From contig JAYUVP010000093.1 of NCBI GenBank assembly GCA_043753995.1, positions 1 to 40,181 on the forward strand: a DNA stretch of 40,181 nucleotides. Reading direction: 5' to 3'. The stretch's first letter is position 1. The number at the start of each line of letters is the position of its first letter. The DNA comes from Fibrobacterota bacterium. Lineage in GTDB: Bacteria > Fibrobacterota > Fibrobacteria > UBA11236. The position numbers are program-made. Positions 30,001-40,181 of the stretch are shown one piece after another.

Positions 30001-33000
30001 GAGATTATTTCTCGGATTTTCGATCCCTTCTTCACCACCAAGCAAAAGGGTAGCGGCCTGGGCTTGGCGACCTGTTATTCGATTTTGAATCAGCATGACG
30101 GCAATATCGAAGTCGAATCGGAGTCTGGGAAGGGCACGGTTTTTCACGTTTACTTGCCAACGTCTCCCAATGTCCCGGCCACCGAGTCCAAGCCTGCTCT
30201 TCGGGAAGTGAAAGGCAGGGGCCGCTTCCTTCTTATGGACGACGAAGCGGTGATTCGCGAAACCCTTGGTGAAATGCTGCGCATGGTCGGCTTCGAAGTC
30301 ATAACCTTCGCCGAAGGCAAGGCGGTGATCGATTATTTGAAGCAAACACCCCAAGGTTTACAGGGAATATCTGCCATTATGCTTGATCTGACCGTGCCCG
30401 GTGGCATGGGCGGGCGCGAGGCCATGGTGGAAATACGCAAAATCAGTTCCGATATCCCCATTTTCGTCTCCAGCGGTTATGGCGACGATCCCGTGATGGC
30501 CGAGCCGGAAAAATTCGGTATCGCAGGCAGCATAGGCAAGCCCTTCCGAAGGGCCGCCCTGCTGGAGTTATTGCAAAAGCACCTAGGCTAGCTCTTAATT
30601 TTTTTCGAACGATTGCGACGATGAGCTACCAAAAGCAGCAAGCCCACATTGAGGCCGATGAGGCCCAGCGTCGAAGGCTCGGGGACGGCATGGAAGTTTT
30701 GAGCGACATAGGCCAAGGACGCCGCATTTAAATCGGAGTCGCTGAAGCCGAAGACATAAAACTTGTTTTCGCCTGCGATGCCCGACACGAAATCATTGTC
30801 ATTCGAAATGTATAGGGTGTGATAGAGGGTGCCATTATCGGTGATGTCCTGACCGAAGGCCAGACCTTCGATCTTGGCAGGAATCTGGATATCGGGTATG
30901 CCGAAGGTTTTCAAGGCCGAGGCAATGTCGAGAAAGAGAGACTTGCTGGGTGCCTGCGCTAAAAGCGCTGCTTGACCCGACAAACCGCTGACGTCTTGAG
31001 CGCCGGCGATGTCGACGGCGAAAATCTGTTTGACCACAGCCTTGCTGCCATCTCCGAGTCCCTTGCCGTCGCGCTCCAGCACCATGAATTGATGGTCGTT
31101 CAAAGCGATGATTTCGCTGCTATTATAAGCCTTGGTCCCAATCAAATTGTCATAAGCGTATTCCTTGGTTTGGCCAGTAGCGATGTCGATGGTGACAATG
31201 CGATTCGCGCGACCCCCATCCCCGCCATCTTGAATCAAGGGGCTTTGCATAAAGCCGACCAAGGTCTTCCCATCGGGGGTGATGGCCAGGCCTTCCATGC
31301 CTTTATTGGCGACCCGCCCAGTCGTATTGCCGGAAATCTCCGCCGCGCCAAGCGAGCTCAAATGATCGACGGCGAAGTGATCCGGCAAGGTGAAAGTCTT
31401 GATGCGTTTGCCGGTGGCGCGGTCGAATTGATAAACATAAGGACCATATTCATCGCTGATGAAAACGCTTAGGCCGTCATTCGAGACGCGAATGGCTTCG
31501 GGATCGAGGCGGGCATTGTCGGAGTTGTCCGATTGGCCTGCTGCAAAGCCATCGGAACGGCCGGTGAAATAGTTCACTCCGGCGCTATTGTTTGACGGCC
31601 CACCCTCGGCTAGGCCGGCGGTGCTGCCGTAGTTCAATTCTGTATTGCTATAGAGCAAGGTGGTGCCCGTGAGCGAAGCCCCGAGGCTATAAGGCAGGCC
31701 TCCGGAGGTGCTGGCAACCAGGTTCAAGTCAAGAGTGTGAAAGCGCGAGATATAGGAGGTGGTATTGTCCACCACGCTCCCGCCGGTATATGCCGTGGCA
31801 TTGGGGCCGCGGTCGGGCACAGCTAAGAAAGTATTGCCACCTGCCCAAGCCAAACCCGAGCCGATGCCGCCTAAAATATTGGCGGCGGAGCCATTTTCCA
31901 ACGTGCCCGTCAATCCAGATAAATCGGAACTACCGCTAATGGTTCCAATGGCAAGCAGGGTCGGGGCCGCTTGGGCTGCGCCCAAGGCGAATAGGCATGC
32001 CGGAAAAAATCCGGGGGAGTATTTGCAAAGCATGGTTGTTTCTCCGAATCGAGCAACCCCGGGGCAGAAATGCCGATGAGAGGCCCATTTTTCGAGCAAC
32101 CTAGCCCCAGATTATTGCAATCCTATTGAGGCGGTATTTCAGATCCGATCTGCCCCAGGGTATTTCCTTTTCAGCCGGCCGAATGGGCTCCAAAACGCTA
32201 ATACCCTAAGCTATTCCGGTTGGAGCGGAGTCAATTCGGAAATACCTTCCAAAAATTCGGGTTTGAGATAGCGCACCTTGTCGCCCAATTCCAAAACCTC
32301 GGCTTGCAAACGTGGCCAAGCCAAAAGGCGTACGATTTCAGGCAAGGATTTTTTCAAAAGCCGATAAAGTGGCCTATGCATTTCGGCGACCAAATCGGCT
32401 TGAATTTCTGGCATGGAAACGAGATAGAGCGCGCCCTTCCACTTGGGAAAAAGCGCCAATAAATCGCCGAAGTTACGCGGACCGGATTGAAGACCATCGC
32501 CGGTTTCAATGGCGAAGGCGGCCACCGGCTCATGCCCATTCATCCAGACGACATCGCATTGGCGCAGGCAGGCAGCTAAGGCTTCATCGCCGAAATCGGC
32601 ATCGCTAGCGGAATTTCCGTCTTCTTCGGAAAGTCTGAGGGAAGTCATGCCCAGATTTTCACCCAAACCCCGAAGCAGAATGCGGGCGGCATGGCGATCG
32701 AGCTCGGGCTCCTGGCCTACTAGGGCTGGGTCAAGTCGAGCGGGTGCTGGCAAGGTGACGGCACCCAGCCGTGAAGAGCGAAGAAAGGCGGGCAGTTGGG
32801 TCTTGGGGGCCTGGGCAATCATGGGCTTTCCTTTCAAGGAAGGAGGAAAGCCATAATATACTGCACAAGTGAGCAGTATTCAAGAGCGAGGTGCTCCGGA
32901 ACTCTTAATCCATGGAACCATAGTCGCGGCGCCAATTCGCCACGGGTTTGCCTAAGCTGGGTTTCATCTTGATATTGGTGACAATGCGACTACTCGAATT

Positions 33001-39000: not shown

Positions 39001-40181
39001 AGTTTTTCCGGTGGCGCAATATTGACGGACTTTAATGAAATTAACCGGCTCATGCGCTGACGATAGCTGGAGTCCTGTCCCAATACCCGGAAGGCCTCGG
39101 CTGAAACACCGTAAATTCTTTCGCCTGCGCGCGTGACCGAATATTTCACCGAGCGGCGCCCAAGATTCGCCGATCCTTCAAAGGCCGGCTTGCTGTCAAA
39201 TGCCGCAATATTGTCTTTAAGGATAGGCTTTTGCATGATCCAATCTGGGCCTTCCCAGCCCACATCGCCATGATCCCTTCCATTTTTCTGCGCGTGATAA
39301 AATTCGAAATAGTAGCGCTTGCCTGGCTCCAGGTATTGAGGCGTTGAAACTCCGCTACCCGATGTGGGCCAACTGTAGGTCCAAGTCGTCAATTGGCAAA
39401 TCGGTTCTTTCGAAAGATTTTCTGGTTTTTCGTCAGTGGACAAATACAGCGCAGCACAATCGTCGGCACGGATAAAGAATTTGAAATTTCCCGAAACCGG
39501 AGGCAAGACATAACCTCGCCATTGCACCAGATAATCATCTGTCTTCCAATTGCTGCCTAAGAAATCAGATGAATCGATAGTGCTCGGTGACGAATGAGCC
39601 TCGGCGTAGGACTTCATTCCCACGGCGTCATAAGGGCCGGCATAGGGCTTCCAGACCTTACCCGTGATTTTCCCGCCGAGATTGACCATGTAAAGCGAAT
39701 CCCGCCCGTCAAGAATTTCCTGCGAAATCAAGGTGACCATGCCGTCTGAAGCATAAAAGCTCTGCAACTGGTTCTTGTTATTCAATCCGCCCGACTTATT
39801 CATGCGCGCACTCACCAGCATGGCGGTGCCGATGGCGGTGATGGCGAGAACCATAAGCAAGGAGAAAATCAGAATGAAGCCGCTTTGATTGGCGGTACCC
39901 TGAGAATGCTCTTTACAAAATGTCACGGTTGACCACTTCTCGTTTTGGATCAAGGCCTTGGATTTCTTTCCAAAGCTCCTAGCCCATAGAAATCCTACTG
40001 GCTGGTCGAACCGCAGGCGGCAATCAAATAGCCATTAAAAAGTCAATTTCACGGCACTAAGCAGGCAAAAAACCAACAAAACAAAAAACTCTTCAAATAC
40101 TAAACGTCAAATCGTATCGGCTTTAATTGCACAAAAAAAGGCCGGCCCCTGAGGAGCCGGCCTGATTTTACCATCCAAGAA

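What a model noticed while it worked through the whole genome (the two positions that open the first line are those of the whole stretch)
32905..39926. PilX-type minor pilins fused to tandem PA14/fibro-slime domains in a doubled pilus-tip cassette
g01191 and g01198 begin with a class III signal lacking Glu5 (PilX-type) and carry two PA14 domains, the second a fibro-slime domain; each ends a FimU-PilV-PilW-like set. This places a fibro-slime carbohydrate-binding module on a type IV pilus tip in place of PilY1.
Evidence so far: Sequences and order; TIGR02148 fibro-slime at the C-terminus (108 and 114 bits, cut-off 45), neighbours match pilin, PilV and GspH/FimU-like models weakly. Full-length homologs (38-50% identity, 2-3 per genome) in 3 of 9 family genomes sampled, none full-length in the other 111; 4 of the 7 homolog loci show the same minor-pilin neighbours and all complete ones start with the G-F-V/I-L pilin motif. 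One paper holds fibro-slime, pilin and PA14, as separate proteins.
(Added by a program. Inside this text positions count along the whole contig: contig position 1 is position 1 of the stretch shown here. "Call 12" and the like, gene names such as g00115 and contig names such as C1 are that model's own, and its searches are not shown. The text may have been shortened before it was handed on; [...] marks where a part breaks off. The agent that wrote the report below was given it as the finding of a first reader that could run no searches.)

Follow-up and report, generated by a model that had tools for sequence, protein, structure and literature searches.

The report
Pilus-tip pilins with swappable sugar-binding slots
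These genes encode two sets of type IV pilus tip proteins whose predicted capping subunit has two sugar-binding-type domains built into it, one constant and one that differs between related bacteria; this is a lineage-specific version of a known pilus-tip design, and what it binds is untested.

Summary
Real, and largely as described. The window (a sediment Fibrobacterota genome) holds eight intact minor-pilin genes: X2-FimU-PilV-PilW, then FimU-PilV-PilW-X1. Correction: X2 leads its set; only X1 ends one. X1 and X2 (40% identical) lack Glu5. The AlphaFold model of X1 aligns over its pilin part with GspK, XcpX and ComZ, so these are K-type (PilX/GspK) subunits. The domains are inserted into the pilin, not appended: PA14 sits after the long helix, and the fibro-slime domain (PA14 fold) sits before a last strand and a conserved W-x-R-D-Y tail. 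That matches the known ComZ/cyanobacterial PilX design, in which PilX supplies in cis the strand that PilY1 gives elsewhere. In distant members the first slot holds CBM4/9, CBM6/35, F5/8 or DUF1349 domains, while fibro-slime and tail stay. PA14-bearing pilins are already listed in print; a fibro-slime K subunit with two slots was not found in my searches. Tip location, ligand and partner machine are untested. An earlier scan note described a ComZ-like tip operon beside a separate fibro-slime gene on other DNA. New variant of a known kind.

The parts
38208..39926 (-). X2: K/PilX-type modular pilin (no Glu5; PA14; pilin sheet; fibro-slime; tail SWKRESFLN); first gene of the unit
   Evidence: ORF; Pfam; TIGR02148 113.8 bits; 40% identical to X1; 82% to P0058
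37698..38207 (-). U2: FimU/H-like minor pilin (Gln at +5), start abuts the X2 stop
   Evidence: homologs in the same position in relatives
37309..37701 (-). V2: PilV/I-like minor pilin (Glu5)
   Evidence: TIGR02523 20.9 bits, below cut-off; alignment A3
36534..37328 (-). W2: PilW/J-like minor pilin (Glu5); likely start ATG 37328
   Evidence: N_methyl 25.8 bits; alignment A2
35873..36412 (-). U1: FimU/H-like minor pilin, 121 nt after the W2 stop
35481..35876 (-). V1: PilV/I-like minor pilin (Glu5)
34655..35476 (-). W1: PilW/J-like minor pilin (Glu5); likely start ATG 35476
   Evidence: TIGR02532 18.9 bits
32905..34644 (-). X1: K/PilX-type modular pilin; last gene of the unit
34432..34599 (-). 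X1 alpha1 helix (mature residues 1-56), Phe at +5
   Evidence: model helix H2-56; weak PilX_N hit
33913..34401 (-). X1 slot 1: PA14 domain (mature 67-229) between helix and sheet, with R-S-D-D motif; replaced by other CBM-type domains in distant homologs
   Evidence: VIA Z 15.0, rmsd 2.8, 148 aligned to 6x95_A, model 67-229; motif counts; homolog domains
33748..33903 (-). X1 pilin beta-sheet (mature 233-284)
   Evidence: strands E233-237, 240-248, 253-264, 267-284; alignment to GspK
32962..33738 (-). X1 slot 2: fibro-slime domain (mature 288-546), a PA14 fold with long loops and an invariant GDDD motif
   Evidence: model pLDDT 92.7; VIA Z 9.1 to 6qe7_A and 8.9 to 6m8m_A
32908..32955 (-). X1 C-terminal strand and W-x-R-D-Y-G tail, the presumed in-cis completing strand
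   Evidence: E549-555 (residues 556-564 mostly below pLDDT 50); W in 111 and R in 109 of 112 rows
40139..40163 (-). terminator-like hairpin (11 pairs plus T run) upstream of X2
   Evidence: overall hairpin count in the region equals that of shuffles, so this is a weak sign

Best explanation
The region is an orphan pair of core minor-pilin (H-I-J-K = FimU-PilV-PilW-PilX) cassettes. Shown here: sequence signals, gene order, domain content and predicted folds. Inferred: prepilin peptidase cleaves after Gly; the K subunit (X1 or X2, no Glu5) sits at the tip with its own V and W; its C-terminal strand folds back over the inserted fibro-slime domain to complete the pilin sheet in cis, so no PilY1 is needed to license assembly; the tip then displays two carbohydrate-binding-type domains, probably Ca2+-dependent through Asp-Asp motifs. 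Slot 1 is exchangeable across the phylum and likely tunes ligand choice; slot 2 (fibro-slime) is constant. The two deeply diverged cassettes would give two alternative tips for a retractile type IVa machine encoded elsewhere in the genome, used to grip polysaccharide surfaces or other cells.
For: No Glu at +5 in 109 of 109 rows with a residue there (112 rows, 3 gaps). The model of X1 (pLDDT 86) aligns to GspK 3ci0_K (Z 8.1, rmsd 3.8, 97 aligned, model 29-562 against chain 29-315), XcpX 5vtm_X (Z 6.2, rmsd 3.7, 89 aligned, 37-562) and ComZ 6qvi_A (Z 6.2, rmsd 3.7, 93 aligned, 31-563). PilX_N passes cut-off in homologs P0192 and P0210. FimU-PilV-PilW lies directly before X in 21 of 26 near loci and 7 of 14 distant loci. 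The tail occurs in 110 of 111 proteins with the pilin N-terminus and 0 of 34 complete fibro-slime proteins without it. Slot 1 holds PA14, CBM4/9, CBM6/35, F5/8, DUF1349 or CBM35+NPCBM+LamG domains. The Asp pair is conserved in slot 1 (61 and 53 of 63) and GDDD in slot 2 (63 of 63); PMC6852018 passages tie such a pair to Ca2+-dependent sugar binding. The genome has 5 extension ATPases, 5 PilT/U-like ATPases, 1 prepilin peptidase and 4 secretins. In-cis strand donation by PilK is shown experimentally in other systems (PMC13533445).
Against: No experiment on these proteins exists. The pilin-part Z scores (6-8) lie in the range the tool calls possibly only a common arrangement, and the last nine residues are low-confidence in the monomer model. 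I had no coordinates, so strand pairing was not seen directly. The covariation test was inconclusive. The tail-versus-N-terminus count rests on related sequences retrieved with X1 itself, so they are not independent. One locus has X without neighbours (L053). Direct glycan binding by an isolated fibro-slime domain was not found in the passages read; it rests on antibody blocking and expression data cited in PMC4668043. The cassette is not linked to any machine, and PilY1 absence has no positive control.
Confidence: 0.72

Rival explanations
1. The cassettes are GspH-I-J-K-type tips of a type II secretion pseudopilus. The inserts recognise glycosylated or sugar-loaded cargo, or gate secretion, in the periplasm, and never act as surface adhesins.
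For: The best pilin-fold match is GspK. HIJK sets are shared by T2SS and T4aP (PMC10191384 passages). The genome has several ATPase/secretin sets and many secreted fibro-slime proteins.
Against: No T2SSK (PF03934) match in the genome, while 10 of 14 control genomes rang. PilX_N rather than GspK models hit the family. No secretion genes were seen next to the cassettes in the fetched loci (20 neighbours scanned). Variable CBM inserts fit surface adhesion better. A separate K-I-J-E cluster exists on contig C136.
Confidence: 0.13
2. The K subunits cap the pilus, but the fibro-slime domain is structural, or binds protein or self-made exopolysaccharide (for example for surface sensing or cell-cell contact). 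Only slot 1, or neither slot, binds environmental polysaccharide.
For: Slot 2 is constant while slot 1 varies. The fibro-slime fold is a divergent PA14 with long loops (Z 9.1). The cyanobacterial PilX insert is proposed to be a cap or to recognise the cell's own EPS (PMC13759059). The family is missing from the largest, probably gut cellulolytic, family (0 of 151).
Against: The invariant GDDD and ER motifs lie where PA14 lectins hold Ca2+ and sugar (inference). Secreted fibro-slime proteins are linked to cellulose adhesion in Fibrobacter.
Confidence: 0.3
3. The doubled, permuted order in this window is an assembly artefact joining two separate cassettes.
For: Run contigs did not cover 35824-39762. 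No relative with exactly this order was seen.
Against: All eight frames are intact and coupled. P0002 (72% to X1) and P0058 (82% to X2) both list a longest contig of 32556 nt, which suggests one contig in a relative (order not seen). K-first order occurs in L090 and a full tandem in L054. No joints were listed.
Confidence: 0.05

Closest known systems
Thermus thermophilus ComZ (PDB 6qvi; PMC6561018, passages read)
   Same: [quoted passage not shown]
   Different: The ComZ insert is a DNA-binding beta-solenoid. Here it is a PA14-fold fibro-slime domain, plus a second, exchangeable CBM-type domain after the helix.
Cyanobacterial PilX(Com)/PilX(EPS) (PMC13759059, passages read)
   Same: PilX with a bulky insert before the last strand, in a lineage generally without PilY1; several core sets share one machine and prime different pili.
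   Different: The insert is a beta-solenoid, not a lectin fold; that system has been tested genetically, this one has not.
T2SS GspK/XcpX and the in-cis strand mechanism, incl. Caulobacter CpaL (PMC13533445; abstract and parts 2-4 of 8 of the text read)
   Same: K subunit, no Glu5, final strand supplied by the subunit itself.
   Different: GspK has an alpha-domain in mid-sheet; PF03934 does not match here.
Modular pilins: Streptococcus sanguinis PilC (lectin) and PilB (vWA); InterPro pilin+PA14 architectures (PMC9934059, PMC8179133; passages and supplement rows read)
   Same: A glycan-binding module carried by a tip minor pilin. Pilin+PA14 is listed for 9 and 4 proteins, and PA14+PilY1 for 76 and 3.
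   Different: PilC has Glu5 and modules grafted at its C-terminus; the survey required the N-methylation motif, which X1 and X2 do not match. No fibro-slime architecture was found in those files under the InterPro number I recalled for it.
Fibrobacter succinogenes fibro-slime proteins (TIGR02148; PMC4668043, PMC4704652, PMC6851124; passages read)
   Same: Same domain, implicated in cellulose adhesion, alongside type IV pili.
   Different: Described there as separate, secreted or outer-membrane proteins; here the domain lies inside a pilin.

Membership tests
K subunit (PilX/PilK/GspK) of HIJK tip complexes | Class III signal with Gly at -1 and a hydrophobic alpha1 | tested here: met
   helix 2-56
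K subunit (PilX/PilK/GspK) of HIJK tip complexes | No Glu at +5 | tested here: met
   Phe in X1 and X2; no Glu in 109 of 109 rows with a residue
K subunit (PilX/PilK/GspK) of HIJK tip complexes | Encoded with H, I and J pilins | tested here: met
   window; 21 of 26 near loci and 7 of 14 distant loci in canonical order
K subunit (PilX/PilK/GspK) of HIJK tip complexes | GspK-like pilin fold | tested here: met
   VIA Z 8.1, rmsd 3.8, 97 aligned to 3ci0_K; also 5vtm_X and 6qvi_A at Z 6.2; moderate scores on a predicted model
Pfam PilX_N (PF14341) | Score at or above 25.5 bits | tested here: inconclusive
   X2 13.5, X1 N-terminus 13.8; homologs P0192 26.7 and P0210 26.5 pass; 13 of 25 N-termini hit at E up to 1
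ComZ-type self-complementing K subunit | Insert between penultimate and last strand; last strand pairs with the pilin sheet | tested here: inconclusive
   strand order and aligned ranges fit; pairing not seen directly, tail low-confidence, covariation weak
K subunit (PilX/PilK/GspK) of HIJK tip complexes | Processing by PilD and location at the filament tip | not testable with these tools
   needs experiment; one prepilin peptidase gene is present
Fibro-slime domain (TIGR02148) | Score at or above 45 bits | tested here: met
   113.8 and 108.5 bits
PA14 lectin domain | PA14 beta-sandwich fold | tested here: met
   slot 1 Z 15.0; slot 2 Z 9.1, rmsd 3.1, 125 aligned
PA14 lectin domain | Asp-cis-Asp Ca2+ site and sugar binding | tested here: inconclusive
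   Asp pairs are conserved; cis geometry, Ca2+ and ligand not testable
T2SS GspK (PF03934) | Pfam T2SSK match | tested here: not met
   no match in the genome; 10 of 14 controls rang; none
PilY1/PilC (PF05567) | C-terminal beta-propeller domain | tested here: not met
   no PF05567 hit on X1 or X2; the models show PA14 sandwiches and a pilin sheet

The most novel reading that the evidence does not exclude
Much of the Fibrobacterota outside its largest family uses a two-slot pilus cap: a K pilin with a fixed fibro-slime lectin and a plug-in slot for interchangeable carbohydrate-binding modules (up to about 1,200 residues). Genomes carry one to three such caps and switch which glycan their retractile pili grip by choosing a cassette. 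This would be a PilY1-free, programmable glycan-sensing tip, and the first physical link between the fibro-slime and pilus adhesion systems, which the Fibrobacter papers I read treat as separate.
Probability: 0.4. Interest if true: 0.75.

Novelty: new variant of a known kind. Interest (0 to 1): 0.58.

Why it matters
[quoted passage not shown] These proteins put the two in one chain and predict a Ca2+/Asp-Asp site on a compact domain, which makes the ligand of fibro-slime domains directly testable. For pilus biology they extend the in-cis strand rule to a new phylum and show a K subunit tolerating two independent insertions, one of them interchangeable among known CBM families. That makes it a natural display scaffold.

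Tried and rejected
Complex prediction of V1+W1+X1: no verdict (score 0.75, but a control with W1 replaced scored 0.71); not used as evidence. Covariation between tail and sheet in 112 rows: top pair D270-G550, other pairs scattered; inconclusive. PilY1 search: 0 of 1 and 0 of 121 genomes, but no control genome rang, so absence is not shown; none of 20 neighbouring genes scanned was PilY1. Sequencing runs: no RNA holder listed; two DNA holders that may be the source. Contigs laid left 35824-39762 essentially uncovered. ESM Atlas: only generic PA14 or unnamed clusters; a Planctomycetota PA14+DUF7305 cluster scored 0.76, a lead only. Foldseek on the full model and the second look returned PA14 and sugar-binding folds only, no pilin. 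PDB sequence search found PA14 proteins only. Promoter and terminator counts equalled shuffles. Recent tandem duplication rejected: the two window cassettes are far apart in both trees, and DNA repeats are short and mostly 73-89% alike. The metagenome scan with X2 gave one full-length hit at 42%, whose neighbours I did not examine; the rest matched the fibro-slime core. The cluster look-up could not be made, so distant homologs P0089-P0210 have no taxon names; placement comes from genome searches. Earlier-findings search by sequence was empty.
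Full report
OBSERVATION. 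The minus strand from 39953 to 32905 holds eight intact, closely packed ORFs. In transcription order they are X2 (likely start 39926), U2, V2, W2, a 121-nt gap, U1, V1, W1, X1. X1 and X2 are 40% identical over 583 columns. Both have a class III signal with Phe at +5, two PF07691 stretches and TIGR02148 at 108.5 and 113.8 bits. The six small genes match prepilin, PilV and GspH/G-like models weakly. Homolog names place the organism in Fibrobacterota; the two runs holding the DNA are sediment metagenomes of one study and may be its source.

ANATOMY. AlphaFold2 on a 63-row alignment (mean pLDDT 86) gives a 55-residue helix, a beta domain at about 67-229, four strands at 233-284, a second beta domain at 293-542 and one more strand at 549-555; residues 556-564 are mostly below pLDDT 50. 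A search of 48,161 solved chains matches 67-229 to PA14 lectins (6x95_A, Z 15.0). It matches the pilin part, across both inserts, to GspK (3ci0_K, Z 8.1, rmsd 3.8, 97 residues, model 29-562), XcpX (Z 6.2) and ComZ (Z 6.2, model 31-563). These Z values are moderate, but the three hits are the known K subunits and the ranges reach the C-terminus. The second domain modelled alone (pLDDT 92.7) is a PA14 fold with long loops (Z 9.1 and 8.9; Foldseek agrees). So the two PA14-fold domains are not a tandem appendix: one is inserted after the helix and the other before the last strand. Both keep an Asp pair (61 and 53 of 63; GDDD in 63 of 63). PMC6852018 (passages) shows such a pair binding Ca2+ and sugar in other PA14 domains; that it does so here is inference.

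FAMILY. A protein search gave 69 hits, 66 of them family members or fragments at 34-100% identity, including X1 and X2. X2 finds near-full-length relatives in 18 of 31 other genomes of the family. A profile of the N-terminal helix finds 42 of 296 phylum genomes: f1 18/31 (without G000), f2 1/6, f9 7/8, f15 10/46, f17 4/7, f21 1/1, and 0/151 in f5. These tallies include one unpublished genome, G059. Of 26 near loci fetched (G059 left out; L001 dropped as the same contig as L034), 21 show FimU-PilV-PilW-X, 1 shows V-W-X cut by a contig end, 3 are at contig ends and 1 has X alone. Five have two X genes in tandem and one has two full cassettes. Of 14 distant loci, 7 show the canonical order, 1 has X first as in the window, 2 show V-W-X (one with X split) and 4 are at contig ends. 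None of 20 neighbouring genes scanned was PilY1.

THE EXCHANGEABLE SLOT. The profile search of 1.84 billion representatives returned proteins that share the helix, the sheet, the fibro-slime domain and the tail but differ in between. Pfam places CBM4/9 (P0159, P0192), CBM6/35 (P0169, P0196), F5/8 type C (P0197, P0205, P0210, L092), CBM4/9 plus F5/8 (L090), DUF1349 below its cut-off (P0114, P0156, P0173, P0190, L096, L097, L100) or CBM35+NPCBM+DUF2341+LamG (P0170, 1683 aa) in that slot; five proteins (two in L091, L093, L094, L102) had no named domain there. PilX_N passes its cut-off in P0192 and P0210. Among 155 distinct fibro-slime proteins in hand, the W/Y-x-R/K tail occurs in 110 of 111 with the pilin N-terminus and in 0 of 34 others; 10 more have the tail without the N-terminus, and these are nine N-truncated fragments and one split gene. 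These sequences are related and were retrieved with X1, so this is a pattern, not a statistical test.

TWO CASSETTES. In trees of 18 cassettes the X1 set sits in a starred clade of 8 rows for both U+V+W and X, and the X2 set lies outside it on a long branch. Similarity of U+V+W tracks similarity of X (Spearman 0.81; kin are not independent). The window therefore joins two old paralogous cassettes; some relatives keep up to three at separate loci. The genome has nine further fibro-slime ORFs without the pilin N-terminus, five other minor-pilin clusters with different K-like genes, and scattered pilB-pilT-pilC and pilMNOPQ-like genes with no linked minor pilins in the stretches viewed (these gene labels are my reading of the sequences). 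That scattered type IVa machine is the likeliest user of this cassette (inference).

MECHANISM. PMC13533445 (abstract and parts 2-4 of 8) shows that a C-terminal strand must complete the PilK sheet before the I-J pair can license assembly. PilY1 supplies it in trans; GspK, CpaL, ComZ and others supply it in cis, often across a large insert. X1 and X2 fit the in-cis class. I give 0.72 to a pilus-tip K subunit that displays glycan-binding-type modules. Rivals are a T2SS pseudopilus tip (0.13) and an assembly artefact for the gene order (0.05). Within the tip reading, a non-glycan or self-EPS role for the fibro-slime domain has about 0.3. Against my reading: strand pairing was not seen directly, the tail is poorly modelled, covariation was inconclusive, PilY1 absence lacks a control, and nothing is known of expression or ligand.

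COMPARISON AND NOVELTY. The design is known: ComZ (PMC6561018, passages), cyanobacterial PilX (PMC13759059, passages) and lectin-bearing pilins (PMC9934059, passages). PMC8179133 (passages and supplement rows) already lists pilin+PA14 among the 15 commonest modular architectures. What I did not find in print is a fibro-slime domain inside a pilin, or a K subunit with a second, exchangeable CBM slot. The searches were 8 papers; passages of PMC4704652, PMC4668043 and PMC6851124 treat the two as separate proteins; 0; 3 listed, unrelated by title; 1; 0; none of the 10 listed of 105 mention fibro-slime. PMC13190605 had no occurrence of the terms, and the one held supplement of PMC13533445 had none. 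Subscription journals and bioRxiv supplements were not searchable, and figures or model datasets could hold such a protein unnoticed. Verdict: new variant of a known kind, interest 0.58.

Noticed in passing
G000:C21 21392-23155 (L103): PilV-PilW followed by two tandem 291-aa K-like pilins with a small Cys/His-rich insert and a C-terminal strand ending in W-R; no Pfam match.
   Followed up: partly
G000:C81 4618-8884 (L104): PilW-like gene, a 612-aa K-like pilin without Pfam match and a 521-aa very Cys-rich pilin; another orphan tip cassette.
   Followed up: partly
G000:C280 and C322: Two self-contained type IV filament clusters, each with its own minor pilins, PilM-N-O-P-like genes and secretin; the genome has 5 extension and 5 retraction-type ATPases and 4 secretins.
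   Followed up: partly
G000 contigs C340, C28, C223, C234, C24: Secreted fibro-slime proteins share a C-terminal domain (DNLG...W...GAY motif) that looks like a sorting signal; the pilin-type members lack it.
   Followed up: no
P0170: A 1683-aa member with about 1,200 residues of CBM35, NPCBM, DUF2341 and LamG domains in the first slot; passage through a secretin would be a puzzle.
   Followed up: partly
L101 4806-6233 and upstream; G188:C324; G177:C173; G207:C624: Split or short X-type frames in some genomes, possibly frameshifts, contig ends or truncated variants.
   Followed up: no
window 30588-32099 (-): Phytase-like esterase with a PEP-CTERM sorting motif; a phytase-like/LamG gene also lies downstream of the lone X in L053.
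   Followed up: no
window 32211-32837 (-): 208-aa ORF just downstream of X1 with no Pfam or NCBIfam match; looks like a degenerate nuclease-type fold by eye only.
   Followed up: no
ESM Atlas cluster: A 575-aa Planctomycetota cluster with PA14 plus DUF7305 may be a parallel PilX design; score 0.76, lead only.
   Followed up: no
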